Below the pieces are notes generated by a model. That model searched no databases and was not told where the DNA came from. It saw nothing but the letters and a program-made list of their open reading frames with translations. Shown here in pieces: positions 1,138 to 61,887 of a stretch of 64,000 nt of DNA. Origin of the DNA: Balanoglossus misakiensis. Lineage: Eukaryota > Animalia > Hemichordata. How positions within the stretch are numbered: position 1 is the first letter of the stretch; each line of letters begins with the position of its first letter. The stretch lies in the NCBI GenBank assembly GCA_040954595.2, contig CM082591.2, positions 6,934,047 through 6,998,046 of the forward strand, given 5' to 3'. Position numbers and translations under genes: made by a program.

Positions 1138-1473
1138 CATTTACTTGAAGTTTTGAATCAACTGATCCCTTATTATCAACACATGTATTCAACTTATTTT
1201 CCAACACTGAGAATGCACATACCTGTTTTAGAAGGTTTTGCTGAAACACTGGCTCCCTTTGTATCCTCAGATATCTCTTTACTTCCTGTAGTGGAGAGAT
1301 GACTTAGACATTAATTTTACTTGAAGTTTTGAATCAACTGATCCCTTATTATCAGCACATGTATTCAACTGTTATTTTCTAACACTGAGATGAAATGCAC
1401 ATACCTGTTTCAGGAGATTCTGTTGAAACACTGGCTCCCTTTGTATTCTCAGATATCTCTTTACTTCCTGTAG
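1138..1473. repeat. ~180-bp tandem duplication of exon 3' half plus intron start
   Basis: ttttacttgaagttttgaatcaactgatcccttattatc...cttcctgtagt occurs at ~1140-1292 and ~1315-1473. Confidence 0.9.
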
Positions 1474-4400
1474 TCCCTGAATCACCAGCAGTTTCTTTAC
1501 TTCCACCAAAAAATCTCCTTATCTTGCTGATGACACCTTTGGATTGCTTTTCTTCTGCAAAAGAAAGTGATCAAACAATGAAAATATAGTATAATAATAA
1601 TAATAATTTATTTATATAGCGTCAGTATCCACAAAAATTGTGATCAATGGCGCTAAAAGCAAAAATAACACTACAACACATGGCTAAAAAGCAGATTTAA
1701 AAAGTAAAGTTTTAACATTTGATTTAAAAACAGATAAGTCTGGTGCCTGGTGAATGGTGAGTGGAAGATTATTCCAAAGAATTGGAGCAGCAACAGTAAA
1801 AGCATGATCACCATAACTCTTGGTGCATGATCGAACAGGGCAGAGTTTGAACTGATCAGCTGACCTTAAATTGCGACACGGAACATATAGTTTGGTCATG
1901 TTAGAAAGATAGATTGGACCAAGTTTATGAATGGATTTAAAAATGAGAACTAACATCTTAAAAACAATACGCTGTGTAACAGGTAGCCAGTGCAACTGAT
2001 ACAAAATTGGAATGATGTGACAGGTGATTTTTGAACGAGTAACAATTCTAGCAGCAATATTCTGAACACGTTGAATACGGTTGGTTGAATACTTCGGGAG
2101 CCCAAATAAAAGTGAATTCGAGAAGTAATGAATGCATGAACTAATTGCTCTGTGGCAGATTGAGATAAATATTTGCGAATAAGCGCAATGCGACGTAAAT
2201 GAAAAGTGGCAGAGCGGCAGATCTGTCCAATATGTGGCTTCATTGTCAGACAAGAGTCAAGGATCACTCCAAGGCTCTTAGCCTGACAATGGACGGGAAT
2301 CAGAGCATCGCCAACACGAATTTCTGAAATCCCTCTAACAGACAGATCACCCGAAGTACCAGAGAAAATAACAAATTCAGTCTTATCATCGTTTAAGCAC
2401 AAGAAGTTTTCAGACATCCAAAACCTAACATCAGATATACAAAGTTCAAGATTTGAAACAGTTCTTGCTGCGTTGTCTTTACTAAAAGACATATAAAGTG
2501 AAGAGTCATCTGCATAAAAACTATAAAGACAACCATGACTTTGAACTAATTCACCTAATGGAGACGTGTACATATTGAAAAGTATGGGACCAAGAACTGA
2601 TCCCTGTGGTACCCCAGTGTCGAGTGGATAGAAAGGTGATTGGGTGGAATTTACAAGTACACACTGACTACGATAGTGCTGTCAATTAATCTGATTACGT
2701 TTGGCTGATATTTAATGGAATGATTTCTTATTTCTTATGGGATATCTCATTTTCCTCTGTCAAGAATATACCGGGTACTGCTTTCCAACATCAGATTGAA
2801 TCATTTGGCCAACATTGAATGTTTACTCATCTCATTGGATATCTGTGACTGATTTTTCTCTATCAAGAATACTAGTATACTATACCATGCTTTCCAACAT
2901 CAGATTGATGTAAATGTAGTTCCAACTTTCTAAGTTTGTTATTGACAGGTTTTACTAGTGTACCTTTTTCCTTTGTCTTAAATTGTTTTGCTTTGGTTTT
3001 CTCAGTCTCAGTTCCATCTCCTTCCATCATCTTGGCCACAGCCTCAGTGTCTTCTTTTCCCATTGTCTCTGGTTGTGGATGTCTGGCTTTCTCTGCTCCT
3101 GTTTCTTCTGATGCCATCTCAGGTTGCATTGATGCTGGTTTCACAGGCTCATCTTCATCTTTTGTAGCCATGGTTACAGGTGATATGTCTCCTGTGTCAT
3201 CTTTCTTGAGGGGCACATCAGATGGTCTGAGTTTGCCTACAAATATTTGAAATTAAATGGTAAGTACGGTACTTGGTTATAATTCTTACAACAATGAAAC
3301 CTTTTTTATAATCTATATGAGCTGGAAGATTTTTCTTGATGCAGGAATAATGGAAGCAGATTTATATCAATCTCACCTTGTTCAGTTTCCAATTTTGCAT
3401 CTTCCAGTTGAAGAGTTTTAGCAGTTTTCAGTTGCAGCTCAGTGTCAGATTGCTCATCCTGGATTTTGGATAATTTTGACTTCAGCTCAGTTATGGTTTG
3501 TTCTTGTTGCTCAAGTTTAGATTCCAACTCTTGGATGTGTCTAGGGTCTGATTCTCTCAATCTTTGCTTCAGGGAAATGACATCCATAAGTTGTGTTGAG
3601 GCTACTTTCTCAACACTTGCAAGTTTCTGTTTGTACTGCTCTTCTAAGAGTGACTTTTCCTGAAGTGCTTCTTTCAACTGATTCTCTAGAATCATTTTCT
3701 CTGTCTGCAGTTTAGTGATTTCTCCAACTAGCTTTCTCTTATTCTCAACTGACTCAGTCTGCAGTTTAGTGTTTTCTTTAACTAGCTTTCTCTTATTCTC
3801 AACTGACTCAGTCTGCAGTTTAGTGATTTCTCCAACTAGCTTTCTCTTATTCTCAACTGACTCAGTCTGCAGTTTAGTGATTTCTCCAACTAGCTTTCTC
3901 TTATTCTCAACTGACTCAGTCACAATTTTGGACTTCTCTGTCAGGGCCCCATCCAACTGTTGTTTTAGTTCTTTGAGCTGATTTGCACTAGCTTCAAAGG
4001 GCAGTAAGCTTTTTGCTTGTAAGCTGATAGACTCTGCTGGTATGGGATGAATTGGTATGCCATGTAGTGTGATTTCTTCTTCCAATTCTGAAATGGGGAA
4101 TGTAGATAAATTTTATTGATATCAAGTAACCTTGGACATGTATTAAGTTCCATAATTATCACACATAGAGAATGATAATGTTGCTAAACTATTATAAAGT
4201 TTCATTCATGTTGCACAGTGAATAGCTGTGTATGTTCCTATTTACTTTTTGTTACAAAGTGCATCAAACATACTTCCCTTTGTAAAGCAAATGTGCTGTT
4301 TGCATCATATTTATGAATTACCTGAGTCACTAAAATCCATCCTTTCTGTGTCAGTCATTAGGTACCTTCTAACACCCAGTAACTCTAACACTTGAGGTCT

Positions 4401-7400
4401 GTGAGATAGGATATGCTGAACTTTCTCGGTCATTTTCACTGTAAGTTGTATGATGTCATACTGTCTTCCTTTCTGTCTTTTATACTGCTCACTGTTGAGT
4501 ATCAGAGGTGCATATTTGTCAGCTGACTTCTGGATTTCTTGTGTCGGATCAATCTCAAGGAACAACAACTTGGATAATATCCCACCTGCAAAATACACAC
4601 AAAATCAGGTTTTAAGTCTTGGCACATGAAGCATCAAATTAAGCTGGTTATGAAGAAAGAATAAGTGGTTCACGGTGTTGAATGTAAAATATAACCCATA
4701 ACCAGATATCACGGCCACAACAAAATCCTTCCTACATCATCCCTCAGATAAAAAAATGTCAGGACATTATAGTGCAAGTGTACACTGACAAGTCAAATAT
4801 GTGTGTAATTGTCAAGAGAAAAATTTGAATAACTGTTAAGAAACCATTCATGTCAGTAATTATTTACGATTGCATTTGAAATATCATGCCCAATCTCTGA
4901 GCATTTGAAAGACTGAAATGTTGAAGACCAAAATCCAATGTTGAAGACAAAAATCCATTCTAATCTGTGAATATTTATGAAGCCTTATGTGCAGTGTGTG
5001 CACATATCCCCCACTGTGTATATAAGGGACCGTTCAGTTTTTACGGCCGGGGGGGGGGGGGGGTTTACTTAAATTTTGAAGTCCAAAAGGGGGGGTCATC
5101 TGTTTTTTTTAAACGTTTAGGGGGGGGGTCACATATTTTTGCCACCGAAGTTTTACTTTTGAGTCCACAAAATTGCAGTTTCGCGCCCTTTATTTTACAA
5201 AATTTTCTAATGTGGGAGGGGGACACCCTCCCACATTAGGGGGACACCAACCCCCTCCATTCTCCCTTACATTGCATTTATTCGCTGGTTTGTCTAGTGT
5301 ACCAGGGCAGACTTCTTCCCACCCTACCCCGATGCTTCTTTTGAGTGGAGTGGCAAAATTAAAATTTGTCCTCCCTAACATTAAGTTAATTTGCTTTTGA
5401 GTTCATTAAAATGCAACTTTGAGCATTGTATTTTACCAAATTTTCGTATGTGGGAGGGGGACACCCCCTCCCACGCCCACCCCCGCCACTTTTCTTGTTT
5501 TACCGATTCTAGCAACTATTGTATTGACTTGTCATTTTATTTTGTTCATAGATTTCTTTATTGCAACGATATACTATTATATACTTCAATTACTTTTAAG
5601 AAATGTATAATTGAGGTGTGAGGAGCCTCATTCCCTTTATTTGATACAGTGTACATAGGATCAGGACGGCGAATGTTTTCGGCGTGGGGGGGGGTCATCA
5701 TATTTTTGGGTCTGTCAAAGGGGGGGGGGTCATCATTTTTTGGTGCTGGGTGAAGGGGGGGGGTCAGCCTGATTTTGAGAACCGATGACACAAACTTGCC
5801 GCCCCCCCCCCCCCAGCCGTAAAAACTGAACGGTCCCTAAGTGTTCGTTTGAAAATTGTGGTCAGTGTGTTCTAAGCAAAATATATGCCCAAGTTATCTG
5901 ATCACAGCTGGACCAGAAAGTCAAAAGATGAACAAATGTGGACTAGAGTACGTACCAAATGTTTCCAGTACTTGACTATTATTTATATTAAATTACTCAC
6001 TTTGTTTCAGGTCAGTCTGTTCAATATCAACATATTTTTCTATAACCTCCCGTTGCAAAGTTAGGTGTGTTCTGTCAACCTGAAATTGGAAGTTATGCTG
6101 CATAAAAGGCTTTATCCTTTTACCGGATACATTATGAAGTGCATAAATTCATCATGCATCTATCACTGTCATATTTTTTAGCACTCACAATAAATTGACC
6201 TGTGTAGTCAACATGACTCTGGAAGACAATAATCATCCAAGAGCAGCTTGGCTTGCAGTGTGGCACTTTAAGGGTTAAAATTACAAAGCATACCTCGGCC
6301 AGTATCTCATTGACATATTCATCGTCTACGCTGTCGTTACATACCACTGGTCCTATTCCTCCACCATCTCCTGAAAGATAATAAATAAAACATTTTTTCT
6401 AGGAAATCATATCTGTTACTGTTACAACAATTACGTATACACACAGAAGTCATTCAAAATTTAAGTTATCCTATTTCATCTATATGTCAAACAAGTTACA
6501 TGTACATTGAGTAGAAATGTTGATATGAAATCTTTGTCAAATTGCAACCAATTTTTTCTGGTTTAATCAATAATCTGAGAGTTTTATGATAGCCCTATCT
6601 GATAAACAAAACTTACTGTTCAGAAAGAATAGTTCCAGTTCATCAAACCTGGCTTGGTCATATGTAGCTATCAACTGTAGTGGAATTCCAGCTGTGTTGG
6701 CCTCTGTCATTTCATCTGTCATCAAGATTGGTTCTAATGCCGTGGCTAAACTTCTTGAATCTTCAAGACAGCTTCCCCGCAATCTGTAGAGATTGTAAAG
6801 TCTACGCATGTTGGCTGTGATTTGCAGAGACTCTGATTTCATACTGGTTATTTCCACTTCACCCAAATTCTCAGTGCAGACTTTCTTGACTTTCTCAGTG
6901 TCATCACTGTTGGATACGACATCAGATGCTCTTCTCTTCAACTGTTTATTGCAGTTGTTCCAAGCTGTAGATGCTGCCTGTTGCCTTTCCTCATTCTGGC
7001 CCTCATTTTCTGCTAGATGTTGCTGATAGGCAGTTTCATCCAGTTGGACATGGATTGCAATTTTTGTGTCAGTGGGATTATCTATGGATGATGACAGGTA
7101 GAACAACAATTATGTCAGAGACAATAATGACAATAAATTACATACATGCACCAAATGAATCTGAATTCCTGTTTGGTATGAGCATGGCCTAATCAAAACC
7201 GATCACTTGGTGATAGTTTTTTTTTTTAGCTAAGGAGACAAGCAGTTCAGATCAGTGTCTAAATTAATGTTGTGATAATTCAAACATGATTAGTAAGTTA
7301 CATAAGCCACGATTGGGTTGGGGGAGAATTAATCTACCGTACTAGTGGGAGAACCATGGATTGAAAATTGCTCCTTTAAGAAATGCAGGCACACTGACTA

Positions 7401-10027
7401 GCCTTGCAGGTCAAAAACCATTAAAACCACATGATTGCATCCCAAACAAAAACCTTGAGGGCAAAATATTTAAAATGTCCCATACCTGCAGGATTTATAT
7501 CCTTGCCACATGGGTCAACTCTGTCTTCCTGTTCCCTTATTTCGTCTGGTGTCAACAAACTGCTGAATTTGGCGTAACACTTGTTGACATCTTCACACTC
7601 CATGAGAGCCTTCTTCAGCTCCTTAGCTTCTTCAAAAGCTGACCTGGTGTTCTTGACACTCCATATTATCTTCTCTGAAATCTTATCAGATGAGTGTGAC
7701 ACTACAAATCTGTCTGCGTGGTATGGAAAGTATTTCTTGACTAACTTTCCAAGCTGGGAATATTCATCAGGATAGGTTGGTAGTCCAACTGCTATAGATT
7801 CTAAACCGCTATACGGATAGTCCTTGTAGACAGAGACAGGAAGACAACTGTGAGATTGATGCACTGATATCATTAAGGTCTTTTCTGAGTATTCTGGGTG
7901 AGGATATGCCATTACATGATTGCTGTTCATCTGCTGTAGAATATGCTTCAGTTCAGCCTCACCTGCTCCCCGTATTGACCAATTCAGAAGTTTGTTGTGA
8001 AAGTCTTTCACCAGGTTTGCTGCACTTCCAATAGCAGCTGCTATTGTCTCACATCTGTCCAAGGCTTCTTGTGTATCAATCTGCCCGTATGTCAGTATGC
8101 TGTGAGTAGTCACTCCATCTAGGAACGTTGGGTCTTTTCTGAAAAAGACTTCAGCAGGTCTGGGAAAAATCTCTTCATGAGGGATCATGTGTAGTTCCCT
8201 GCCATTAAAGGTAGCCCGGTATTCGTTCTTGAAATGCTCATACATACTTGGACCAATAGAAAATATGATGTCAGCTTCACTGGCCAGCTTCAGCATAATT
8301 TCACTAAACTTCCCTTTTGGTTGTTTCAACAGACAGTTGCCTTCTTCATAGGCATGGTTGATCATCACTAGTTCTGCATCAGGAAACAATTTTTTTCTGA
8401 TATTTGCAGCAGCAAATCCAGTCCTCGGAGCATAACCAACAACATATTTGATGTTTTGTAGCTGTCTGAGGTGAGGGTAGTAGGTTTCATGATATTTCGT
8501 CAACCATTTTAAATGTGGCTGATCTTCTTCTGGCTCTGCAGTTCTGTCTTCTTCTTGTTGTTGTGCTGGAATCAATTTAACCCGACACTTGGCAGCATCT
8601 GCCTTCTGGTCATCACTGACTTTGACACCAACAAATGTGGAGTAGGCGTTAACAGGTGTTTCTTCTTTGACTTTTCTTGCACAGAAATCTTGTACGAGAG
8701 TTCTGTGAAACCCAGTCAAGCCACAATCTTCTTTGTTCCAGTCGTCATACACAAATAATACTCCAGGAGGTGGATCTGGAAGATGGAGTTGATGAAGTTT
8801 GGCTTCAGGGAAGAGACTTTCGTGGATTGCTTTGGCTGCATTCTGTGTCTTTGGAGAATATCCGACTACATGTTGGATGTTTGTCAGTTCCTTCAGTCTA
8901 GGGAAGTATGTACCATGGTTAACAAGCCAGTGTACTCCAGGGGGGTCTTCATGAGGATCCATCCTCTTGTCTCTTACAGCTGAGATCAAAGTAGCACCAA
9001 CACTCTCTGCATCTTTCTTTTGTTCTTCACTCACTTCAACTTCAAGGGTAGTACAGTTGAATTCAGAAACTTCATCTGGCTTCAGTTTTGCTTCCCGAAA
9101 TTCAGTGACAAGTTTGTTAGTTGGTGTTGTCTGATCTTCTGATTCTGTCAGCCAGGTTTGCATGACCATTAATGCTGCCACAGGTGGTGGATTGGGAAGT
9201 TGGAGTTGGTGAAGTTTGGCTTCAGGGAAGAGACTTTCTTGAATTGCTTTGGCTGCATTGTGTGTCTGTGGAGAATATCCGACTACATGTTGGATGTTTT
9301 TCAGTTCCTTCAGTCCTGGGAAGTGGATACTGTGGCTGGCAAACCAGTGTACTCCAGGGGGGTCTTCAGAAGGATTCAACCTCTCGTCTCTTATAGCTGG
9401 GATCAAAGTAACATCAACACTCTCTGCATCTTTCTCTTGTTCTTCACTAACTTCAACTTCAAGTGTAGTACAGTACGATTGAGAAACTTTCTCTGACTTC
9501 AGGGTTTCTTCTCGAAATTTTGTGACAAGCTGATGAGTTGGTGTTGTTGTCTGATCTTCTGATTCTGTCTGCCAGGTTTGCATGACCATTAATGCTGCCA
9601 CAGGTGGTGGATTGGGAAGTTGGAGTTGATGAAGTTTGGCTTCAGGGAAGAGACTTTCTTGAATTACTTTGGCTGCATTGTGTGTCTGTGGAGAATATCC
9701 GACTACATGTTGGATGTTTTTAAGTTCTTTCAGCTTTGGGAAGTGGATACTGTGGCTGGCAAACCAGTGTACTCCAGGGGGGTCTTCATGAGGATCCAAC
9801 CTCTTGTCTCTTACAGCTGGGATCAAAGTAGCATCAACACTCTCTGCATCTTTCTCTTGTTCTTCACTAACTTCAACTTCAAGGGTAGTACAGAGGAATT
9901 CAGAAACATTCTCAGACTGGAGTGTGTGTTTTTTTAGATGTTTGATTATAGCTTGAGTTGGTTGGGAGGTTTTTGCCTCCTTGTCCCATGATTTCAATAC
10001 AACCAGTGCTGCAGATGGTTCTGACAT
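1223..10027 (-). CDS. Multi-exon gene: 3x GT4 N-lobe repeats + GT4 (conflict-type) glycosyltransferase-like domain + TRADD-N-like domain + coiled coil + charged low-complexity tail; 3' end not resolved
   Basis: Phase-compatible GT-AG exons read by eye: 10027(ATG)-7486, 7081-6617, 6370-6294, 6079-6001, 4585-4322, 4087-3377, 3236-2964 (alternative donor 2886), 1554-1405, 1285-1223. The 868-aa ORF has GT-B/GT4 features (VLFVYDDW..GLTGFHR, YVVGYAPRTG, ADIIFSIGP, GLESIAVGLP) like the GT4 domains of invertebrate NLR/Death-domain proteins. Confidence 0.8.
1591..2672 (-). mobile_element. 5'-truncated, frameshifted CR1/L2-group LINE (RT C-terminal part, 3' UTR, (TTA)n tail)
   Basis: GVPQGSVLGPILF and FYADD RT motifs, LHWLPV..RIVFK and FKSNVKTLLF C-terminal motifs; frameshift near 2115 (overlapping ORFs 1950..2573 and 1684..2253); (TTA)n tail at 1591-1607; possible ATAGT TSD at 1586-1590 / 2673-2677. 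Confidence 0.93.
3703..3918 (-). repeat. Four 54-bp coding tandem repeats (TESVENKRKLVGEITKLQ) in coiled-coil exon
   Basis: gtctgcagtttagtg at 3703, 3757, 3811 and 3865. Confidence 0.97.
5026..5837. mobile_element. PIF/Harbinger-type MITE with poly-G/C subtermini
   Basis: TIR GGGACCGTTCAGTTTTTACGGC / GCCGTAAAAACTGAACGGTCCC; TAA on both flanks. Confidence 0.88.
6617..7081 (-). CDS. Exon encoding probable TRADD-N-like domain
   Basis: Strand-helix pattern IAIHVQLDE...GEVEITSMKSESLQITANMRRLYNLYRLRGSC..SLATALEPILMT, directly after the GT4 domain, resembles TRADD-N-like domains that follow GT4 in invertebrate proteins. Splice sites catag|AT and AACA|GTAAGT. Confidence 0.55.
7486..10027 (-). CDS. 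Large single exon encoding the N-lobe repeats and the full GT4-like domain
   Basis: ORF 7421..10027; acceptor cttcttcccag(cag) at ~10038-10043; donor GCAG|GTATG at 7486. Confidence 0.85.
8764..10020 (-). repeat. Three tandem ~417-420 bp coding repeats (139-140 aa)
   Basis: caggtggtggattgggaagttggag at 9181 and 9601 (420 bp apart), variant at 8764 (417 bp); protein repeat CTTLEVEVSEEQ..DPPGVHW..NIQHVVGYSP..SLFPEAKLHQL. Confidence 0.97.
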
Positions 10028-14131: not shown

Positions 14132-15699
14132 ATGGGAGGTGTTAATGCATTCGATCTGACAGTTGTTCTTGAAGAAGCTAAGGCTAGTCACCCCAAGGAG
14201 AACATTGTATTTCTTGATAAGTACTTAGCGGCATATTCTGAACTGGCCCGGTAAGTTGATCTTTTATTGATCAAAACTATATGTGTAATAAATCCGGATC
14301 ATTTGAATTGAAATGCCAAGCGAGCGCACCTTGGATTATACCATTCTCTGGCGGCGTAGGTTAGCATTGGGGTTAGGGTTAGCGTTACGTTAGCGTTATG
14401 ACTGTTTTTAAAATGACTTAGTTTTATGAATTAAATCAAGTTTCCGTTTTAAATTGGGCCATTTTGAATAAAATCATAACCATACCCTAACGCTAATGCT
14501 AACCTTAATGCTGACCATCGCCACCAGAGAATGGTAGAGTCCAAAGTGCACTCGCCTGGCATTTCAATTCAAAAGATCCATAAATCCCAAACGAGACACT
14601 TTATTACCAGGTGAAAGAAGTCTCGCTGACGACATTCATACTGCGTGTTGTATAACCCACCTATAGTGTGGCCAAATACAAATGTCAACAGAACACTAGT
14701 GTACATTTACACTTTGTTTTCACCGATCTAGCTGATTTCTACACAATTTGCTAGCTTTGAGGTCACTCTTTCAGAAACAAACATTTTCGCCATGTATAAG
14801 TCGCGCGTTTTTTTTTTTACAAAAACGAGGGAAAGTTGGCAGAATCACCAATATGGCATTTACTGTAATTTGAATCATGGGAAAAAAGTGCCAGGACCAA
14901 CTTCCGCCCACCTTGGTGTGGGTGATACCATTCTCCTATTGGTGTTACTGGGCGACAGACTAGGCGTATTTGCATAGCTATTGTTTGTACTTTGCATCAG
15001 TTGATAAACAATCAGGAGCAGAGTCGAAAATTTGTCATCTGTTGACAGTTTTTATGAGCTATAACCCATGAAAAATATGCAAATACGCTTAGCCTGTCAC
15101 GCATATGGATTTCCTTCAATGATTGCACGATTCTGCTTTGTTCTGCATCAACAACTTTTTGAATTTGTTTAATTTTCAGTTTCTTTGACCTACTCGGACC
15201 TATTTTCGCTTTTGTGGCTAAAGATCTACGGGACAAAATCCACACACTTGAACAACATCAAAAATCCGATCATGGTGATCACTACAGGACGGTACAATCC
15301 ATGATGAAATACGAAGTTGAACACAACATAGCGAAAGGCAAATCACACCACGGTTTGCATTCAGGATGCAAAACGTTAATGCGACTGCACCGGCCGCTGG
15401 AATTCATCATGGAGTTTATGCGACAGTTTCGAGACAGTGACGATTCGAAGAAGGTTGCGGTGCTCGCCATTGATGTGTACGACAGAACGCTCGCTAAACA
15501 TCACATGTGGATCATACGCAAGATGGCTCACATTGCAGTGTATACTCTGCCGGGACGGAGGGCGTTGATGGAGACTTTGTGTAAACAGCATCCTGAAAGA
15601 GTTGTCGAACTGATCACTCCAGTTGTAGCAGCTATTCAAATTATCTATGATGAAATCCAAGAGCTCTATGCAATGTACGGTCTATTAAAATTGTGGTGA
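14132..15699 (+). CDS. CPTP: Ceramide-1-phosphate transfer protein (GLTP fold, CPTP/GLTPD1-like), 212 aa
   Basis: Exons 14132-14250 (MGGVNAFDL...YSELAR, donor CG|GTAAGT) and 15180-15699 (acceptor ttttcag|T). Motifs FFDLLGPIFAFVAKDLRDKI, SGCKTLMRLHR, LAKHHMWIIRK, YTLPGR match the CPTP family. Confidence 0.92.
14296..14579. mobile_element. Palindromic MITE with degenerate TTAGGG-like internal repeats, in CPTP intron
   Basis: Long imperfect TIRs GGATCATTTGAATTGAAATGCCA / TGGCATTTCAATTCAAAAGATCC; 8-bp TSD ATAAATCC at 14288-14295 and 14580-14587. Confidence 0.88.
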
Positions 15700-18923: not shown

Positions 18924-21900
18924 TCACTTAAAACTGATCAGATATTCAGGATAAGCCATGGCATCTCGGAAGACGACGAACATAATTGGGTTCAACTGAT
19001 TGTCGACGACACTATCATAAGCATCAAGTTCGTCCTTTGGGTTCTTGGGAGGTGGTACAATCATTTTGGAGTTGCCGACTGTGTAGAGTCCCGTCAAAAC
19101 TCGTGCCAAATACATGTTCATAGTGCCACTGCTGTCAGACTCCGCATATCCACTGGCAGAGTATGACGCTTGCACTGCAAAGTAGGTGCCTTTTCCATAC
19201 GCGGTAGCTGTCATAAATTAAAAGTTATGAATGTTGCGCCATGATTCGATATGAGCAATATTCTACGTACCATAAGAACTGGCTGCGTTAAATAGGTTTT
19301 CACTTTGTGCTAGGGGGTCAAATCATATTATAATAATTGCATTCTGGGTAAAAAGTCGACAACACACTGTAGTAAGAGATAGAAGAAATGATATGTTTAT
19401 TGTATTTCATGACTTCCTTTGGTCAAACATTTCTGCCTTTGTAGTTGTAATATTAAAGTCAATCAACTTTTTTCATTTGTTTCTGTTATACAAAGTATCA
19501 GATTGACGCAATATCATTTAAGCTTATGAACTCCCATTTCTTAAACATGACAAAAATCGGCCATCTTGAAATTGTGTCGACCTTGTGAGATTTTCATCAC
19601 TCACTTAGGTAGCTTAAAACCTATTTAAGTTAGGGAAAATTGTAACGTAAAAGACTTACCATTTTTACCGGCGAAGCTTCTGTTAAATCCTCCAGCGTTG
19701 ATCTTGTCAATGGAATCTGCACTGGTACCGTGAAATAATTTGCGTTCATTCTGCGTTCCCGGTGGATTCTTTTCCTCCATGGCTTCCTTAAGTACCATAT
19801 ACTGACGATACAACTTTTCATTTTGTATACGTTGTATCTAAATAATACATAAATAAACCTTTGATGTGTACTAACTATCATTCACAGTGAAGCATACGTA
19901 CATCCAATGCAAGGCACGACAAGTCATGTTTAGAAACCTAAAGTAAATTGCGTTATCCACACTTAGCGATGCTTGACCGTTCTTTCACTTAACTCAGTGT
20001 AGTCGATCACAGGTATACAATAGAGAGTCCGAGATTCAGGAAGGATAAACGTACCTGTACAGTTTGCTTGGGAGTATATGTTTTCCTGAAATATGCGTCG
20101 ACGTTTTTATATTCCGGAGACTGGGGATTTAGGGGCACGCTTTTGAATCGACCGGTGGGAGGCATTGGATCCCAATTTGCGGGAACACCACCTGGTGGCA
20201 GATAAAAAGAAAACGTTTAAACCTAATACAACAGAAGTTATGGTTAAGTTTCAGCTCAGTTAAAGGGACAAAGTCTCTCTCTCGCTGCCCATTTTCATTA
20301 ATTATGTTTGATACAATGCACTGTTTATGTTATTCTACATTGTGGATATATAGTGAATCAACGTTCGACCACACACAACTTCCATCCCGTTTGTAGGATA
20401 TGAGAGTAAAAATCTCGCCAAAATGAATAAACGGTAAACACCGATTATTCATTTTGGCAAGTTTTTATCTCTCATGTCTACAAGCAGGGTGGAAGTTGCG
20501 TGTTGTCCGAACGTTGATTCACTATATATCCACATGTAGAATAACATAAACGACGTCTTGTATCAAACATGATTGCTAGAAAAAGGGCAGCGAGAGAGAG
20601 ACTTTGTCCCTTTAATATTTGTGATGCATACCCCGATGAAACAACATTTGGGTCACCTGTGTCTTGTCATATTATGAATTTTATAATACAGCAATGCTGT
20701 GTCGATGTATACTTACTTTGTTTTTCCACCCTCCTGACAGAAACCTTAGGTGCCACATTGTGCAGGTCAATCTCTTGCATGTCTTTGAAAACGATTCTGT
20801 ATTTACCACCGTCAATTTCAAAATCTACTGAAGGCTTCTTGTCTACGTGAGCCATTTCTATTATTCCCGTCACCCTTTCATCATAGTCTTCAAAAGTGCC
20901 ATCGTCGCCGAACTTCCATCGGACGTTCTTTGCCAAGTCCTTCTGTCGCTTTTCGTTGTGAATCTTGGTAGCCAGTTCGTCCAAAATCGAGTTGGCCTTT
21001 GTCTGTACCGTAAGAACATCATTACCTAGGCCTTTTATCACAAGAGTAGGAGTACCCGACATGGTGGCTTCTCTCACGGCAACCTGGAACAGAAGAGCTA
21101 ATCAAGTTAAAGGGGAAGGGTCACTTGAAATGCGCATGTGCGAATTACACCACACATACAATGGTCACAAAAGCATTTACTAAGGATCACCGTCAGAGCG
21201 CGTACTAAGACACACAGACAAAAGTGTTTGCCATTCATAAAAATATCATTATCATATTTCAACAGGAAAACGCCGCAGTGTCAGCTTTTCGGCCAATTCT
21301 GAGTTCCTGTGGTCTAAATAAAGGGAATGATATTTACATGTATACGTACGTTGTGTTGCAGGCCAATTAGTACAATATTCTTAAAGTCTTCATCACTTAA
21401 ATGCTGGACATGTTTGTGTATCTTCTGTAAAAATTAAAAAAAAACAGTGAAGAGTGATGGCATGTTCGAAATGAACCAGATTTATTTCATATAGGCCGTT
21501 CACATTACTCAAAAAAGGTTAGGCCCTTGTCCTAGCAAGGTATGTGGCCTAGCAAAAAACAGGTGTGAACGGGTCTGGCCGACCCTTGTCCGGACAATTT
21601 GGTCCCAGTCGAATGGGGTGGTGTGTGGTCGACTCTGGTCCGACTCTGGTCCCAGCCAGGTGTGTGTGTACACGTTTTGTCCGACTCTTGTCCTAGTTGA
21701 CACCTTTTACACTTGACATAAACAGTGTAGTCTATCATTTGACAATGGTGACAATCGCATTAAACAACCAGAAGAGGACCAACATGGTTCTGCTTTATAA
21801 GGTCAAAGGTTGGCGAGACGACTTTTGCCAGGACTATGCCAAACACAATGTGAACGGGGACTAAAAGATTAGCTTATCTTCTCACAATCATCAATTAGGA

Positions 21901-24900
21901 ACTAACAGATGTAAATACTATCTCAAATACTTCAGAACAGCATATTCTGCAGTAGTTTTCACAAATACGTATTTTTTAAGCTCGCATAAGACTTTCCAAA
22001 CTCCAAACTTACATGTTCAGTTGTTTCCTCCCTGATGTACGTCTGTAACTTCTTTACAGCGCCACCAATGTTCGCTTTTGAGTCAGAGTAGAAATTCAGT
22101 GTCAGTGTCTCGAGCTCCGTATGACTTGTCCAACCAGCTGCACTGCTCTCTGATTCGTTGTTGCCGGTGAATTTTGTTTTAATCGTCGAACCAATCGCAG
22201 ACGCCTTTCCTACAAAAGAACACGTTGTTTTGAAGTGCTGTGTCAGTTATGACTCTAGAATCGTGGATTTTATACATAATGTTATAATACACTGCACTCA
22301 CCGAACTACCATGATCCGTATCGACAATCAGTTAATAATGCATTGAGACGGAAAGTTAATATTATTTACCAATATATCCTTGAATATTCATCAGATTCTG
22401 TCAGCATTGACATATGACCTGCTTGTAACATTTCAATAAGTTATATCATACAATGTGCTTTCAGGTACTGTAAATTATATACTTGTGACATGTATCCAAT
22501 TCAAATTTCTAACTTACCAAGAACCTTCGAAATCACACCCTTGGTTTCTTCCACTGGTTTTCCTTGGAATTCTTTCATAACATTTTGGAACGTTTTGCAG
22601 TCTTCGGACTTGAAAATCACGACTCTGATATCCGTCAATGTTTGTGGCGTACACTTGTAGGAGAAGCTACCGATGGTGTCTAAAATTTTACCGATGACCT
22701 TTTTGGGCGCCATTTTTAATATTCCTACAAGAAAGCAGGACAAGCGCTTGAGGATTCGAGTGATTTACAACCAATCAAATGCCAAGCCTCTAAACGGAAG
22801 AATACCTCACTCTCTCCCAAAATCAGATGCCACGAGATATCTCTTTAAAGGTACTCGGTCACCTCCAATTTACATACGCCCATATATGGCTAAAATTGAG
22901 CATTTCAGTGTTCTAAAGAACAAATGGTGTCGCTCTTTTTTCGCGTGTGCCACCCACTACAAATCTGTAATTGGCTAGATCTCAATTTGCCATGGTAACT
23001 GTAGCTAAATTTACATAGGTGACCATATACCTTTAACCATGCACTGAAAATAGACACTTCTTTATTTACACGGAACACTGTTACATTTGTGTGTATTGGT
23101 TTATGACAATAGGAGAGATCACTGCTCGCGCTTAAAATAAAACTCACACGAATTTATACCAAAACTACTACCTGTTCCTAGTAAGGGCATGGATATGCTT
23201 TGGAAGTTACTGTCTTCTGCCAATTTGAACACATCGAATAGTGTCTTTTCGAAGTTTCCCGGTTTTAATACGACATGGATGATTTTTCGGCACTTCAGGT
23301 TTCCAGCATTGGTCGTAACTATGCTCCCACGTTTCAGTTTTCCTATAAAAGAAATGACAATGTCTTTAAACTAAATTAAACTACACTAAACTTACACTAA
23401 ACGAAACTAAACTAAACTAAACTAAACTAAACTAAACTAAACCAAACCATTAACTGTAGTGAAGTTTTCATGAGACCTTAAGGTCTTTAAACTCTGCTCC
23501 CATCCACCTGTCTTAGACTTTCCTTAAACTTGAATATTATATCTTTAATATACCTACCAAGACGTTTACATTCTTTGGCTATAGAAGCCCCGCCTGCTTG
23601 AAGTATTGCTGACTGAATACCAGTACCTGTAACAATCACAATAACACATATACATATATGTATATTGTACATTTTTCGCCTATACGTGTACATAAGATAC
23701 ATTCAAAGTTACCCTTCCTGAATCTTTCTTGTGATCCAATTGTCACTTTCTTAAAGGAGAAGTTCTGACCAGCCTGAATTTGCCTTTTGAGTTGAAATGA
23801 GTTACCTCTCTTGCCAATCTTTCATAAAATTTAATGATAGCATCACACATTTAATGAGGAGAGCTTTTCGAAATAAATAATATGTGTTGCGCCATTTCCC
23901 CTAATTATCCCCAATTATAGTGCCCCTTAGCGTCATTTTCTGGCAAGTTTACACCTTTGTATGACGCGTTGTTTTCGTGTTACTGAGAAGGAGTTAGGGG
24001 GTCCTTCTGGGGAGCCTCAATCTGTACATAGTATTAAGACATACTCAACGTTAGTATCGAGATTAAAGAAAAAGTTCATACATGGTCTTGCCTCAACACC
24101 GTAAGAGAAAGTGAAATATAAGAAAAATTCACCTCTGTCAAGATCGAGATCTTCATTTGTGCTGTTGATTATGGCATCCGTTGTTTCAGCTGTGATGTCT
24201 CCATGACAGGCTTCCAACCGAATTCTCCCAATCATCATATGACCATCTTTGATGGTATCTTGTGTAAATTCTGAGTACATGGATGGCTTGGTTTCTGAAA
24301 AATCACAAATGTTTAGATCAGTCCGGCTGAAAAGTAAAACAGTCTTGTGCAGGTAATGACAACAGTTAAACTGTCGAGAGTTTCAACGCGTGACTTTTCA
24401 TTTGAAAGTTGTTCCCATATTTTCGAATAAATCATTATTTCTAGGAAATGGAAACTAAAACATTACCATGTCTTTTTCGAGTTGTCTTTACCGAAGCTTC
24501 TGGGGAGTCTGACGTACCAGTAGGTACATGTATCTTTTGCATTTCATCCTCAAATGCCTAAAAGGGAAAAAGATACAGACGTAATCTGTGGTCAGTCATT
24601 CCATACTAAAAATCATATTTAATCCGTATTAAAGGCGCGACTGGATTGCATTAACACGTATCATGTTCACACAGGGTATAATTTGTGACACTATTTGCCT
24701 ATGGTAAACACAGAGCATTAATCATTTCAGTCGCATTGTGTCCACACACACAAAGTTTATGTATAGGCGCTAAGTCTCGGGCCCCATAGACAATGGAGTG
24801 CGGAGAGGTGTTAATCCTTACACCAGCTCAGGTCTGGCCGGGAAAGCCGTCTCAACGCGGACACGTTTTAGGACCACTTACACTGTCCACACATGTTTTT

Positions 24901-27900
24901 TAAGACGGTATCCGATCTAAGACGCTTCAGAACCGTGCCTGTCTGACCCCCATAACGGTTCATGCCAGTTAGATCCCTACTGTAAATAAACCAAGTGATC
25001 CTTTGTGGAAGAAATTCGACGGTACATCATTATCGCAGATGTGGAAGAAGTCATACTGGTCTTTCGATGACAGTATTCTTTTTCTACGTCTGGAGTCGCG
25101 ATAACACCCTTTCATCCATGAAAACCATGTTCACATTGAGGTTTGACGCATTACTGGAGAAAAGTACACACAAACAAAATACCTTGCACACTGCCACGTT
25201 CTGACCAAACACAACCACCCGGATGTTGGTTAAACTGCTATTTGGTTTTCGGGCACTGAACGTGTTGATCTCCTCATACATGATTTTTGCAACTGTATCG
25301 CTTGGGTACTGTAGACCACCTGTTCCCATGGCGGGAATGGCTATAGATGACATGTTGGCTTGGTCGGCTGATTCCAGACACTTCTTGATGACGCCTCTCA
25401 TCAACTATTGATTAAAGATGAGTGTGAATTTGATTACAAACAATCCACAATGTTCGAAAGAATCGTCTCACGTATCCCCTGGATTCGCCAATAGGAATAA
25501 GTGACACAGATTCCTTTGGATATATTTCATTCGTCATAACATGCATTATGACTATTAAAATAGACCAAGTATCGCACAAAATTCCAATCACATAACAAAT
25601 ATTGTTAGGCCTTCCCATGATTGCAAATATCCATCCCATAAAATGGACGTCAGATGGCTCTAAGGTAACATCTTTTATGCAAATTAGTCAATGTCAAATG
25701 TCTTACTGGGTCGCATTTTTGTCCGCCATCCCAATGTGTATCCAAAATGCAAACATGATAAACACGTTGACATTTCAAGTTGCCTCCTCCTGTGGACACC
25801 ACGTCTCCTTCTTGAACAGGGTTGGGTTTGTTTTGGGTCAGTTCTGTCTGAAGTTGCTGGCCGGCAGCCTTCACCATTGCTTTCGCTAATACCCCATTAT
25901 CCAAGGAGCATGATGTGGTGATTGGATTAACCAGTGCATCAGCCTGGAAAGTAATACCGGGTTCACACAGGGTTAAATCTGAGACACTATTTGCCTATAT
26001 GTTAAACACAGATCATTAATCCTTTGAGTCATGTTGTGTCCACACACATAAAGTTTATGTATAGGCGCTGAGGCTCGGTCCCATAGACAATGGGTTGCGA
26101 GGAGGTGTTAATCCTCAAATCTGAGACGTTCCAGGACCACTTAAACCGTTCACACACACATTTACGCAAGTATTTGGTCTGAGACGTTTCAGAAACGTCT
26201 TAATGGTGTGTGAGTGTGTGATCCCCATACAAAATAGCTATTAGTGGTAAATGTTGCTTTTGGTAAATTGTTGTACTTCGTGAGGTATGTAAAATGAAAT
26301 AATACTGTACCTGTTCTTGAACTATGTCACCTTTAATCAGACTAACCGTCTTCCCTTCTGGTGTCTTGTAGGAGTTTCCACTAACGGATATGAATGTAGA
26401 TCCTGATGGGACTTGTAGTACAAAAACATTAAAATGAACAAATTATTCTACAGTTTTCACAGTACAATATTCCTGCATTTTCATGAAATAAATTGATCCT
26501 CACATAAATCTTAATATTTATATAAAAGTGAACTTAAAATTGCGTTGTAAGAAAACCAGACTGAATTTTCTATATGTTAAAAAGGAACAAAAGCAAACGA
26601 ATTCAATTAGTTTCAGAAAATTTCTCATCCACACCTACCAGTAACTCCTTGCGCACCAGTAAACCGTTTTAACTCATCTTCAAAAGCCTGTGTTATATTT
26701 CAAAAGACACAGGTATTTAGTTTAGTGCCAATGCATCATAGAAATATTTTATAATAAATTAATGGACCATTTTCCAAACTCCACAATACCCTGCGAGATC
26801 TCGCGTGGCTAGGCAGTTTGTACGGGAGGACATTGTCACGTGACATAGAGATACACATTAAAGGTAAACGGTCACCTCTTATTTACATACGCCCATACAT
26901 GGCTAAAATGGAGCATTTCAGTGTTCTGAAGAATATATTGTGGCGCTCTTTTTTTGCGTGTGCCACCCACTAAAAATCGGTGATTGGCCAGATCTCAATT
27001 TGCCATGGTAACTGTAGCTAAATTTACATGGGTGACCGTATACCTTTAATTACTCAAGAATATGCAGAGAATCCTATTATTCAGACTAAGTGACAAACCT
27101 TGATACTTGCTTGATCTTTGTCATAAACAACGACCATGAGTTCTTTAACAGGAGTGGTTGGGTGTCTCTTACTGAAAGAAGTGAATTCCTCATAAATGAT
27201 ACTGGCAACGACATCTCGAGGGTAGTTGAGTCCCCCAGTGCCCAGAGCCGGTACAGCAATCGATGACATGTTAGCCTGGTGTGCATTCTGGAAGCACTTT
27301 TGAAGGACACTTTGCAAAAGCTGTGAATAAATAAAACGTTACTACAGAGGAGCTGGCATACACGACTGAAAGATGTACAAGGGTGAACGAATGAGGGCGC
27401 TCGGAGGGCAGACACCTACATGTAATAATGTAACATTCCTCATGCAAATCCGTAATATTCCCTACATTCACAGTCAATCAAAACCTCGATGACAGTCTTT
27501 TCACAAAATTTTATTGTATTTACAAAGAGCACTGGTTTAGTAGTATCTCTTGCTTCATCTAAAATCCAGAACGAGGATGTAAAGCTTCAAATCAAAATGC
27601 GCATTTATAGCTGCAATTGAAAATAGCACATGCGTAATGGTGTCAGTATACCTATTTATAAACTCGATCGACCTGCCTATGCTCATCATTGCAACCCCAA
27701 AACATAAAATAATTTTACCGGTTTGACTTTTGTGCCTCCATCCCAGGAAGTTCCCAAGATACACAAATGATAAACATGGCTGCAATTCAGATTTGCACCT
27801 CCCGTCACTATGACGTCACCCTCGTTGACGGTCTGTGGTTTCTTCTGATTGATATCATTCTGGAGTTGTGGCCCAGCAGCCTTTAGGATAGCTTGTGACA

Positions 27901-30900
27901 CGACACCAGTGGATAGGTCACATTTCGTGCCGGTTGTGTTCACAATGACATCAGCCTAAGAAGAACACATAAGATTCAATCACTAACCAAATCTCTCTTT
28001 TCTCTCATTTTGCAAACAAAAATCGAGCTGCAGTAGTTCCATGATTCTTCATGTCGAAGACAATTTGCAGCCGAGAGACCCACCTGTTGATTGGCTATGC
28101 TTCCCTTCACGATTCTGACAACCTTTCCTTCAGCTGTTTTGAAACTTGTTGTATTTATTGCTGAAGCACGTGGCGCACTTGATATCGGCTTCTTCGAGTC
28201 TGTAAGTCCTGTGATAAAATAGAAATTGCAGAATGTGTCAAGAATTGACAAAAACACGAACTTCTTGTTTCGACGAATTACCTTGGAAATTTTACCGCGA
28301 TAACCAGAAACCTAAAATTGATCAGCCACAAATTCTTCTGTTTTTAAATCATCACAAGAATTTCGCGATAAGACTGCACAAATTACCCAGCTTGACTTGT
28401 GATATCGGTAGGCCTACTCCATGTAGTCTTGCCATCTCATCTTCAAATGCCTGTCGTGTGAACATAAGAAAATCGTCAACTGTTGAGTGATCATCAAAAA
28501 GCACACGGTCAATGTTGCAAAACAATGCACAATAAAAGTGTCAACTAAAGCTATGCAAATTTAGTGACAGTTGCCATGACAAGTTGAAATGTACATCATT
28601 CGCCCAAAGTCAACATAACAGTGCCGATCGCGAAGCCAAAAGTAAGATCATCTAACAGTTAAATAAAATGATCAACCAATTGAGTACAGCCAAACCTGTC
28701 TATGAAGGGATTTCCCTAAACTGGCCTTGATAGACAGGTGGCCTATATAGACAGGTCAATTAATTCCCATGTAAATTGTATACACGTACAGGGACTGTGG
28801 CCACTATAGACACGTTTTCATTGTGTGGACGGAGGTGGCCGCTAAAACAGGTTTGGCTGTATTCTACTGTAACATTTGGTCTCATTTCCCCAAAACGGTG
28901 AGTGCCACTTTACCTTACAAGTTTGCTGGTCCTGATCGTACACCACCACTTTCACATCTGACAAGGTACTTCCTGAATGTCTCTTACTGAACTTGATGAC
29001 TTCTCCATAAATAATGCTGGCTGTGATGGCTTTAGGATATCGAAGGTTACCAGTGCCCATTGCAGGAATCGCTATTGAGGTCATTTTGTTTCGGTGCGCT
29101 TCTTTCAGACACTTGTGAATTACACTGTGGAGTACCTGTAAAAATATTAAGCAACTATTGTTGTCATTTCAATGCTAAACATACCACAAAATATAGGCCA
29201 ATCATTAAAATACACATTAGGTCCAACCTGATATGCTTTTACTCATCCATGAAGAGTTCGTTGTCAGTTGGCTATCTCATCTCTTTCTTTTGCTTACTGA
29301 TTTTCCTTTCGCTTTTTAGCGTCTTTTTGGGTCAATCGTGTATAGACTTCCCCCTAGACTCTATGGCAGTCTATGTGCCTGTCTATTCTTCGATATCAAA
29401 TGACCTCAGACGCGCTCAGGCGGCAGTTACGTGCGCATTCAAATTTCCAGATGACGGGCAACTTCAGCAACGTGGTGCACACAAAGACTGTGCAGATGAA
29501 ATGCAATGAGGCTGATGAGGCACCATACCTGATACATGTTACGTGTTTGGCGGTTCTAAAGTAAAAACATATTCGGAAAAACTTTTACTAGATGCCGAAA
29601 TATTGCTTGCCCGTCATCTGAAAATGACAACGCCGTTGGTCACATGGCCAGATCACGTGATTTATAGTAAAGAATAAGGAATACATGGAATAGAACTTTC
29701 ATACTGCGTACGACGCGCTGCCAGGCCAAGTCCATAGGACGTTCTATACGTAACGCGGACGCGTATTTCAGTATCACACAGTCCTGGAGCAAGACTAACT
29801 TCCCCCTAAATCTTATTTTTATACAAGATGAAGATAATGCAACACACCTTAGTAGCATTTTTGCCATCATTCCACGGAGTGCCTAAGATGCAGACGTGAT
29901 ACACAGCCTGGCAGTTCAGGTTACCTCCACCAGTAGTGATCACATCTCCTTCATTAACCGCACCACCAACCTTTGCGTTAATGTCATCTTGAAGTTGTTG
30001 TCCAGCGGTTTGTAAGATGGCTTGAGAGATTGCTCCAGTGGACAGGTCGCATGTCTTTACAATGGTGTTCACAATTACGTCGGTCTATTGATAAAATACA
30101 ATTAATCATTATTTTATTAGCGAAACGACCACAATACTTAAAGCCCCTTCAGCTGCCAAATTTCAAATATTTTTTTCCAAAGTAAAATACTTCGAATATA
30201 TTCCCTATCCTCTAAAATCCTCACCATTAAGCCATTACATTTGCATCATTTTGTCATCTCTTGGCGACGCGTACCACGATAGTTGCGTACTGTTTGTATG
30301 GAGGCTGATTAAATGGGTGTGGCACCCGTTTAATCCATAGCGTGTTCAAATTGCAACATGCAGTCACAGTCGGGCATCAATAAGGTGTTCATGTATACCT
30401 ATCAGTAAGCTTATTTAGATGAACCAATTTAAGTTGGAAAATAAAATCATGAAATTAATGCAAATAGTGGCAGCTCTAGAGGCCGAGAGGGGAGGTTTTA
30501 CAGTCACTGCTCTCAGTGCATGGGTAACATCGGAATGCTTTTATATTGTTAAAACAGTTACATACCGTTTGCTTTGCGATATTTCCCTTCACCAGCTCGA
30601 TGTTCATCCCCTCAACTGTTGAGAAAATGTTTGAGTATGAGGGTTTGACGGACCATGCAGATCGCTGTGGAATAAGAAAATCCTCATCTGTAGCATCAAT
30701 GTCATCTCCATCACTAGAATCCACCTCCGTTTCATCCATGTAATCTGAAATATAATAAAATAAAATGTCCGCAGTGATGTGGGATTTGTCTGGAAAAGAC
30801 GTACAGTAAACTCATGAATAGCACATTTCAAAAATCATCTTGGCAGTTTCAAGAAACACATCAAGACTTATCTGTTTACAGAACCTACTAACAATAACTT

Positions 30901-30974
30901 CACATTGGAATTTTGACATTGTAAAGCGCCATTGAACACTACTGCAGTTTGCACTCTATAAATACCTGTGTTGG

Positions 30975-31040
<66 letters not shown>

Positions 31041-61836: not shown

Positions 61837-61887
<51 letters not shown>

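What the first reader, a model, noticed from the sequence alone, without database searches (positions are those of the whole stretch)
7486..10027. GT4 conflict-type glycosyltransferase preceded by three tandem copies of its own N-terminal lobe
Seen: three 139-140 aa repeats sit in frame ahead of a full GT4-like domain, and each aligns by eye with the first ~140 aa of that domain (repeat: W..CTTLEVEVSEEQEKDAESVDATLIPA..HW..HFPKLKELKNIQHVVGYSPQTHNAA..LFPEAKL; domain: W..STFVGVKVSDDQKADAAKCRVKLIPA..KW..YYPHLRQLQNIKYVVGYAPRTGFAA..LFPDAEL), joined by PNPPP linkers. Established: in GT-B enzymes the N-lobe binds the acceptor and the C-lobe binds the nucleotide sugar; GT4 domains occur as effectors in cnidarian and other invertebrate NLR/Death-domain proteins. 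Inference: the acceptor-binding half has been amplified as a stand-alone module (multivalent sensor, decoy or scaffold). I do not know a described protein with this architecture.
Basis: partly seen in the sequence, partly recalled or inferred. Interest (0 to 1): 0.8.

Follow-up and report, generated by a model that had tools for sequence, protein, structure and literature searches.

The report
Extra lobes on a dead glycosyltransferase
A likely immune gene of a probable acorn worm carries three tandem copies of the front third of its own sugar-transferase domain; relatives in the acorn worm Ptychodera carry one or two such copies, the copy next to the enzyme is predicted to pack rigidly on it, and the enzyme lacks its usual donor-binding residues, so the protein likely works as a binding scaffold or sensor rather than as an enzyme.

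Summary
A minus-strand exon (10027-7486, 847 codons) encodes three 139-142 aa units (67-76% identical) ahead of a full GT4-conflict domain (PF20706); each unit is 33-38% identical to the domain's start. The reading 'acceptor-binding half amplified as a stand-alone module' is only partly right. A unit holds 5 of the N-lobe's 7 strands and has lost the beta1-alpha1 loop and the Asn-His that face the active site. AlphaFold (unit 3 + GT4, pLDDT 93.6, pTM 0.90) implies rigid packing, not beads on a string. The extra unit is a family trait: 42 database relatives have one (39) or two (3), 40 of them named Ptychodera flava; named Glandiceps, Saccoglossus and Branchiostoma relatives lack it. The third copy is a recent out-of-register duplication. 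The GT4 lacks the donor-binding Arg/Lys pair and first Glu (0 of 33 unit-bearing domains keep Arg+Lys, against 30 of 34 canonical ones), so it is likely a pseudoenzyme. Downstream exons encode a TRADD-N-like domain and a coiled coil, the chassis of Kaur et al. 2021. No description of the extra unit was found. Verdict: a new variant of a known kind; no expression data, ligand unknown.

The parts
9602..10027 (-). Unit R1 (aa 1-142), starts at the ATG; its first ~115-120 nt are diverged and resemble the first unit of two-unit P. flava proteins
9182..9601 (-). Unit R2 (aa 143-282); head like R3, body like R1: product of an out-of-register duplication (inferred)
8765..9181 (-). Unit R3 (aa 283-421): 5-stranded Rossmann-like partial N-lobe, predicted to pack on the GT4 domain
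7598..8764 (-). GT4-conflict domain (aa 422-810), GT-B fold; keeps G436, H558, E743; has Q649, D657, K735 at the canonical Arg, Lys and first-Glu positions
7486..7597 (-). End of the first coding exon; GT donor at 7485, phase 1
6617..7081 (-). Predicted exon 2 (AG...GT, 465 nt, in frame): TRADD-N-like domain (DEDD2 clade, by homology to XP_006819467.1)
6294..6370 (-). Predicted small exon 3 (DGGG linker as in P0002, P0013), in frame
3377..4087 (-). Predicted coiled-coil exon with a 54-bp x 4.1 internal repeat; matches P0002 aa 914-1118; at least one small exon between it and exon 3 is unresolved

Best explanation
This is an acorn-worm-type GT4-TRADD-N-coiled-coil gene whose glycosyltransferase is likely catalytically dead and whose three N-terminal units, partial copies of its own N-lobe without the active-site residues, are predicted to dock on the GT4 and would extend a protein-binding surface. 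Shown: the architecture, the homology, the lost residues, one or two units in relatives, and the mosaic origin of the third copy. Predicted: each unit folds as strands 1-5 of a Rossmann lobe, and the last unit sits in a fixed position on the GT4. Inferred: the unit arose once in the Ptychodera lineage as an in-chain copy of an N-lobe/N-lobe contact (GT4 enzymes such as GlgM dimerise through N-lobes). Further copies would stack head to tail and raise avidity or reach. The block would bind a pathogen or host protein in the cytosol and relay through TRADD-N and the coiled coil to a variable tail. The number three itself is probably a recent copy-number variant.
For: Units lack the cleft-facing residues but keep 28 core positions shared with the N-lobe, and have their own conserved positions (C325, H386, N396, H402, H412). 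Across 23 unit-bearing proteins the unit is as conserved (57.5% mean identity) as the homologous N-lobe part (59.1%) and more than the C-lobe (43.1%). The N part is more conserved than the C-lobe in 519 of 528 pairs of unit-bearing domains, against 211 of 561 pairs in canonical EPFG-type domains (pairs are not independent). Arg+Lys are both kept in 0 of 33 vs 30 of 34; PMC3898925 assigns this pair to pyrophosphate binding. Model of unit 3 + GT4: pLDDT 93.6, pTM 0.90, above the ~0.74 (394/531) that a freely swinging unit would allow (my arithmetic). Units form one clade, 91/90. TRADD-N-like and coiled-coil exons follow in frame. No hydrophobic segment in exon 1 (max 19-aa hydropathy 1.08).
Against: No ligand or partner is known, and no RNA run holds the gene. 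The docking site is not known, because the model gave no coordinates or contacts. Unit-on-unit stacking was not modelled with an alignment. pTM had no control and can be overconfident. E743 (33 of 33), H558 (31 of 33), an acidic residue at 736 (32 of 33) and a basic residue at 657 or 658 (24 of 33, R658 here) are conserved, so nucleotide binding or unusual catalysis is not excluded; WsaF is active without the first Glu. Loss of the donor residues predates the unit (0 of 16 unit-less hemichordate-type domains keep Arg+Lys+Glu), so the unit did not cause it. The single-origin clade is not starred.
Confidence: 0.45

Rival explanations
1. The GT4 is an active transferase with a rewired donor pocket (D/E-X6-E, R658 for the missing Lys), and the units recruit or gate a protein acceptor, as the effector model of Kaur et al. 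proposes for GT4 domains.
For: E743 in 33 of 33, H558 in 31 of 33, G436 in 31 of 33, D/E736 in 32 of 33. Intact GT-B fold, Z 26.4 to 6kih_A and 26.2 to BshA 6n1x_A. WsaF departs from EX7E and is active.
Against: Arg649 is Gln in 28 of 33; only 1 of 33 has a basic residue at 649 together with one at 657/658. The donor lobe is the least conserved part. WsaF keeps its Arg and Lys.
Confidence: 0.22
2. The first extra unit only stabilises the fold or replaces a dimer contact, and copies two and three are neutral products of unequal crossing-over with no function of their own.
For: 39 of 42 relatives make do with one unit. The three copies are young (100/99 clade) and mosaic (max-chi 31.6, 0 of 10,000 permutations). 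The window shows other recent tandem duplications. dN/dS among copies is only 0.52-0.68, with p 0.03, 0.04 and 0.23 by a simple count that ignores transition bias.
Against: Two-unit proteins persist in P. flava with distinct first and second units, and R1's head tracks the first unit (scores 104-111 vs 46-59), so two units predate the split of these species. All three copies are intact and in frame.
Confidence: 0.2
3. The units are decoys: baits that mimic the GT4 N-lobe surface attacked by a pathogen inhibitor or protease, titrating it or triggering TRADD-N signalling.
For: Conflict-type family with many paralogues and variable tails (NHL, TPR, NB-ARC). Catalytic residues are lost while the fold is kept.
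Against: A bait in an arms race should change fast, but the units are as conserved as the N-lobe core and more than the C-lobe. Predicted rigid docking.
Confidence: 0.1
4. The array is an assembly artefact or the gene is a silent pseudogene.
For: No contig spans the array. The gene model is incomplete downstream.
Against: Copies differ by 13-21% in DNA. DNA contigs match copy-specific stretches exactly, e.g. 9581-9650 and 9484-9545 (possibly the source sample). 847 open codons and in-frame canonical splice sites. Same architecture in RefSeq models of another species.
Confidence: 0.04

Closest known systems
GT4 + TRADD-N (DEDD2 clade) proteins of hemichordates, cephalochordates and cnidarians (Kaur et al. 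2021, PMC8195603; Pfam PF20706)
   Same: GT4-conflict domain followed by a TRADD-N-like domain and a variable tail; lineage-specific expansion; predicted counter-invader role.
   Different: The passages, section and supplement rows I read show single GT4 or repeated GT4+GT4 domains, no partial N-lobe unit, and treat GT4 as a glycosylating effector. Ptychodera has 0 occurrences in the 12 supplements searched. Here the domain lacks Arg/Lys/first Glu and carries three partial N-lobe copies.
Uncharacterised Ptychodera flava RefSeq proteins (P0002, P0013, P0019, P0020 nearest; e.g. XP_070575125.1, XP_070573415.1 in the wider family)
   Same: Same unit with the same end point, same degenerate motifs, same TRADD-N-like exon; about 50% identity.
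   Different: One or two units, never three among the 160 other proteins held; the unit is not annotated.
Bacterial GT4 enzymes (BshA 6n1x, sucrose-phosphate synthase 6kih, PimA 2gej; GlgM 6tvp)
   Same: Two-lobed GT-B fold (Z 22-26). GlgM dimerises through N-lobe helices (PMC11046441 passage), a precedent for N-lobe/N-lobe packing.
   Different: 8-14% identity; they keep the Arg/Lys pair and EX7E; none of the 50 listed matches aligns to the extra unit (model range starts at residue 133 or later).
Streptococcal GtfB (recalled, no call)
   Same: A GT-B-fold protein without catalytic activity that serves binding.
   Different: A whole separate subunit partnering an active GtfA, not in-chain partial copies; bacterial adhesin glycosylation, not animal immunity.

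Membership tests
GT4-conflict (PF20706) | Score above Pfam cut-off over the full profile | tested here: met
   94.2 bits vs 26, profile 1-374 of 385
GT4-conflict (PF20706) | Two-Rossmann GT-B fold | tested here: met
   Model pLDDT 93.6; Z 26.4, rmsd 3.6, 344 aligned to 6kih_A; Foldseek GT-B hits
Catalytically active GT4 | Arg/Lys pair binding the donor pyrophosphate (PimA R196/K202, MshA R231/K236; PMC3898925) | tested here: not met
   Q649 and D657 here, with R658 adjacent; 0 of 33 unit-bearing vs 30 of 34 EPFG-type domains keep both. Mapping is by alignment to EPFG-type relatives, not by structural superposition.
Catalytically active GT4 | First Glu of EX7E | tested here: not met
   K735; conserved Asp/Glu one position later (32 of 33). 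Not decisive alone: WsaF is active without it.
Catalytically active GT4 | Second Glu of EX7E | tested here: met
   E743, 33 of 33
Catalytically active GT4 | N-lobe His and beta1-alpha1 Gly loop (role of the His recalled) | tested here: inconclusive
   H558 and G436 kept; first Gly is Cys (Gly in 0 of 33)
Catalytically active GT4 | Sugar transfer from an NDP-sugar | not testable with these tools
   needs an assay
GT-B N-terminal (acceptor) lobe, for the repeats | Homology to the N-lobe | tested here: met
   33-38% identity, z 27-33 against shuffles; PF20706 positions ~33-112
GT-B N-terminal (acceptor) lobe, for the repeats | Complete lobe (7 strands in this GT4) | tested here: not met
   Unit 3 has 5 strands; the GT4 N-lobe has 7 before the interdomain linker
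GT-B N-terminal (acceptor) lobe, for the repeats | Cleft-facing loop and Asn-His retained | tested here: not met
   G436 7 of 37, H441 1 of 37, N557 0 of 37, H558 0 of 37 units
GT4 + TRADD-N (DEDD2 clade) | TRADD-N domain after the GT4 | tested here: inconclusive
   Exon 2 matches XP_006819467.1 aa 586-706 (26%, E 5e-8), a protein listed as TRADDN-DEDD2+TM+Coiled-coil without coordinates; no Pfam TRADD-N hit; not folded. Likely, by transitive homology.
GT4 + TRADD-N (DEDD2 clade) | C-terminal LRRs or other variable tail | tested here: inconclusive
   Coiled-coil exon found; relatives' NHL tails have no match in the window; the gene may run past position 1
GT4 + TRADD-N (DEDD2 clade) | Role in immunity or cell death | not testable with these tools
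   predicted in PMC8195603, not shown there in the parts read

The most novel reading that the evidence does not exclude
Ptychodera-lineage acorn worms built a new repeat module from a fragment of a dead glycosyltransferase: a five-stranded Rossmann unit that stacks head to tail on a GT-B core, giving a three- to five-lobed receptor whose unit number (1-3) tunes recognition upstream of TRADD-N signalling. A separate degenerate GT4 subfamily (P0073, P0087) duplicated its whole N-lobe independently, which would make N-lobe amplification a recurrent route from enzyme to immune sensor.
Probability: 0.25. Interest if true: 0.7.

Novelty: new variant of a known kind. Interest (0 to 1): 0.45.

Why it matters
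GT4-conflict domains are hugely expanded in marine invertebrates (over 500 in Acropora according to PMC8195603) and are assumed to be glycosylating effectors. This clade suggests that many are pseudoenzymes whose conserved working part is the N-lobe core, and it marks that part by duplicating it. A natural series with 0, 1, 2 and 3 units makes the function of that surface testable. A GT-B fold with a rigid third partial lobe was not seen among the structure matches. The reach is limited: the unit is so far confined to one acorn-worm lineage, and its ligand is unknown.

Tried and rejected
Whole genome: none held, so paralogues in this species were not counted. Single-sequence fold of the 847-aa protein failed (pLDDT 35.5) and was not used. 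Expression: no RNA holder listed, not evidence either way. Runs X4/X5 (share 0.06) laid only 4 pieces each, and X3 none. phmmer of the GT4 against PDB sequences: 0 hits; the profile found only weak C-lobe hits. ESM Atlas with R2: best score 0.81, no family, no model, uninformative. Pfam gave no TRADD-N hit. No other GT4 or unit copy in the window. Fold searches were dominated by the GT4; the unit alone was not folded or searched (both folding jobs used). Literature searches returned no paper; others returned none whose title or abstract start points to this architecture. Earlier-findings look-ups by sequence and by words were empty. Rejected: whole-N-lobe repeat (5 of 7 strands); acceptor-site amplification (cleft residues lost); architecture unique to this gene (42 relatives); several origins of the unit (apparent exceptions were three truncated own N-lobes, and one search gives one clade, unstarred).

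Full report
Observation. The minus strand holds an open frame from ATG 10027 to a GT donor at 7485, 847 codons. Three units end at P[ND]PPP (aa 1-142, 143-282, 283-421). They are 67-76% identical to each other and 33-38% to the start of the following domain, with z 27-33 against 500 shuffles. Pfam PF20706 GT4-conflict covers aa 424-810 (94.2 bits alone, cut-off 26); each unit hits profile positions about 33-112 at 18-24 bits. Copies differ by 13-21% in DNA, which argues against an assembly echo. DNA contigs of one sample, possibly the source, match copy-specific stretches exactly, but none spans the array.

The gene. Relatives map further exons: 7081-6617 and 6370-6294 follow in frame at canonical sites, and 4087-3377 encodes a coiled coil. 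Exon 2 matches Saccoglossus XP_006819467.1 (E 5e-8, 26%), which Kaur et al. list as TRADDN-DEDD2+TM+Coiled-coil; Pfam gives no TRADD-N hit. Relatives end in NHL, TPR or NB-ARC tails; the tail here is not resolved. The nearest proteins are Ptychodera flava at about 50% identity, and the window's GT4 groups with P0002, P0013, P0019 and P0020 (SH-aLRT 99, quick tree of 57 of 122 domains). The host is thus probably an acorn worm related to Ptychodera (inference).

How common the unit is. Three word-based searches and one exhaustive profile search (131 hits among 1.84 billion representatives) gave, with cluster members, 160 other proteins. Of these, 39 have one abutting extra unit, 3 have two and none has three. 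40 of these 42 are named P. flava; P0038 and P0041 were not looked up; some are isoforms or fragments. P0033 also has a unit but was missed by this count because its own N-lobe is broken. Names were looked up for 30 proteins: six Glandiceps, two Saccoglossus (plus P0018) and one Branchiostoma protein have no unit, nor do nine P. flava proteins, some of which look N-truncated. In a tree of 54 selected rows the 20 units form one side of a branch (91/90, not starred), so a single origin is favoured but not shown.

How the third copy arose. The three window units form their own clade (100/99). R1 and R2 are 58-60% identical over the first 120 nt and 90-98% after; R2 and R3 share the head (98% over 60 nt). 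The switch near nt 115 is significant (max-chi 31.6, 0 of 10,000 permutations). R1's head scores 104-111 against the first unit and 46-59 against the second unit of the three two-unit P. flava proteins, while R2's head is ambiguous (68/62, 81/75, 78/88). The simplest history is a two-unit ancestor and an out-of-register 420-bp duplication (inference). A contig joint 9069-9982 and a loose end at 9918 hint at paralogues or alleles with fewer units or other heads.

What a unit is. A model of R3 + GT4 from a 71-row alignment (about 35 rows cover the unit) has pLDDT 93.6 and pTM 0.90. The unit has five strands in the same order as strands 1-5 of the seven-stranded N-lobe and stops just before the Asn-His. 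A freely moving unit would cap pTM near 394/531 = 0.74, so the model implies fixed packing; there is no control and no contact list. The GT4 part matches GT-B enzymes (Z 26.4 to 6kih_A, 26.2 to BshA); none of the 50 listed matches covers the unit. Units keep 28 positions shared with the N-lobe and lose the cleft-facing ones: H558 0 of 37 vs 28 of 29, N557 0 of 37 vs 29 of 29, H441 1 of 37 vs 27 of 29, G436 7 of 37 vs 28 of 29 (six truncated or outgroup rows left out). They are under constraint: 57.5% mean identity across 23 proteins, against 59.1% for the homologous N part and 43.1% for the C-lobe. dN/dS among the three copies, 0.52-0.68, is weak support only.

Is the enzyme alive? Among 122 complete domains, 34 carry the canonical GG / GR / KG / EPFGxxxLE set. 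The window has CG / GQ / DR / KDYPYSGLE. Arg and Lys are both kept in 0 of 33 unit-bearing, 2 of 16 unit-less hemichordate-type and 30 of 34 canonical domains. PMC3898925 assigns this pair to pyrophosphate binding and describes EX7E. The C-lobe is the least conserved part in this clade but not in canonical domains. Against inactivity: E743 is in 33 of 33, H558 in 31, an acid at 736 in 32 and a base at 657/658 in 24, and WsaF works without the first Glu. I put pseudoenzyme at about 0.65; I recorded this reading before seeing two earlier scan notes on other loci of this genome that say the same; these are not independent evidence.

Mechanism. Most likely (0.45) the protein is a cytosolic scaffold or sensor. 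A dead GT4 plus docked N-lobe fragments would form a protein-binding block that signals through TRADD-N and the coiled coil. The unit may copy in chain an N-lobe/N-lobe contact such as GlgM's dimer (PMC11046441 passage). Docking site, stacking, ligand and signalling are inferred. Rivals: rewired active enzyme 0.22, neutral extra copies 0.20, decoy 0.10, artefact or pseudogene 0.04.

Literature seen. PMC8195603: passages, section 11, searches of 12 of 13 supplements (file 4 was cut when stored) and part 15 of 61 of Figure 6 data. It lists GT4+GT4 architectures in corals and bacteria without domain boundaries; their lengths (738 aa and up) fit whole-domain repeats. PMC3898925 and PMC11046441: passages. 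All other papers: search listings only. GtfB and the role of the N-lobe His are recalled. Searches showed no description of the unit; the library lacks most subscription papers and bioRxiv supplements.

Verdict. A real, apparently undescribed variant of a known immune-protein chassis. The family-wide partial lobe and the degenerate active site are the interesting part; the count of three is a recent local event. Interest 0.45.

Noticed in passing
window 19276-39013 and 42123-64000: Two tandem copies of a PARP14-like gene (KH_PARP14, RRM_PARP14, WWE hits), 94-98% identical over most blocks, with a Gln/Pro-rich exon differing by large indels (34802-36961 vs 60334-62742).
   Followed up: partly
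window 15163-15699 +: Intronless glycolipid transfer protein-like frame (PF08718, 131 bits); possibly a retrocopy.
   Followed up: no
window 1684-2681 -: Frameshifted reverse-transcriptase (LINE-like) fragment, probably inside an intron of the GT4 gene; judged from the translation. Kaur et al. note retrotransposons near DEDD2-clade TRADD-N genes.
   Followed up: no
window 1140-1560 -: Two 182-bp repeats each holding an exon-like unit with AG/GT ends; may be repeated small exons of the same gene.
   Followed up: no
P0073 aa 1-332, P0087 aa 32-341: Unnamed ENA proteins of another degenerate GT4 subfamily with an N-lobe duplication at about 180-200 aa spacing: a probable independent parallel.
   Followed up: partly
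39 of 122 GT4 domains: A further large set of GT4-conflict domains lacks even the second Glu and mostly the His, so pseudoenzymes may be common in this family.
   Followed up: no
P0041 aa 23-240; P0034 aa 184-279: P0041 seems to carry a second extra unit rather than an own N-lobe; P0034 joins a partial unit to an ATIC-like protein, probably a gene-model artefact.
   Followed up: no
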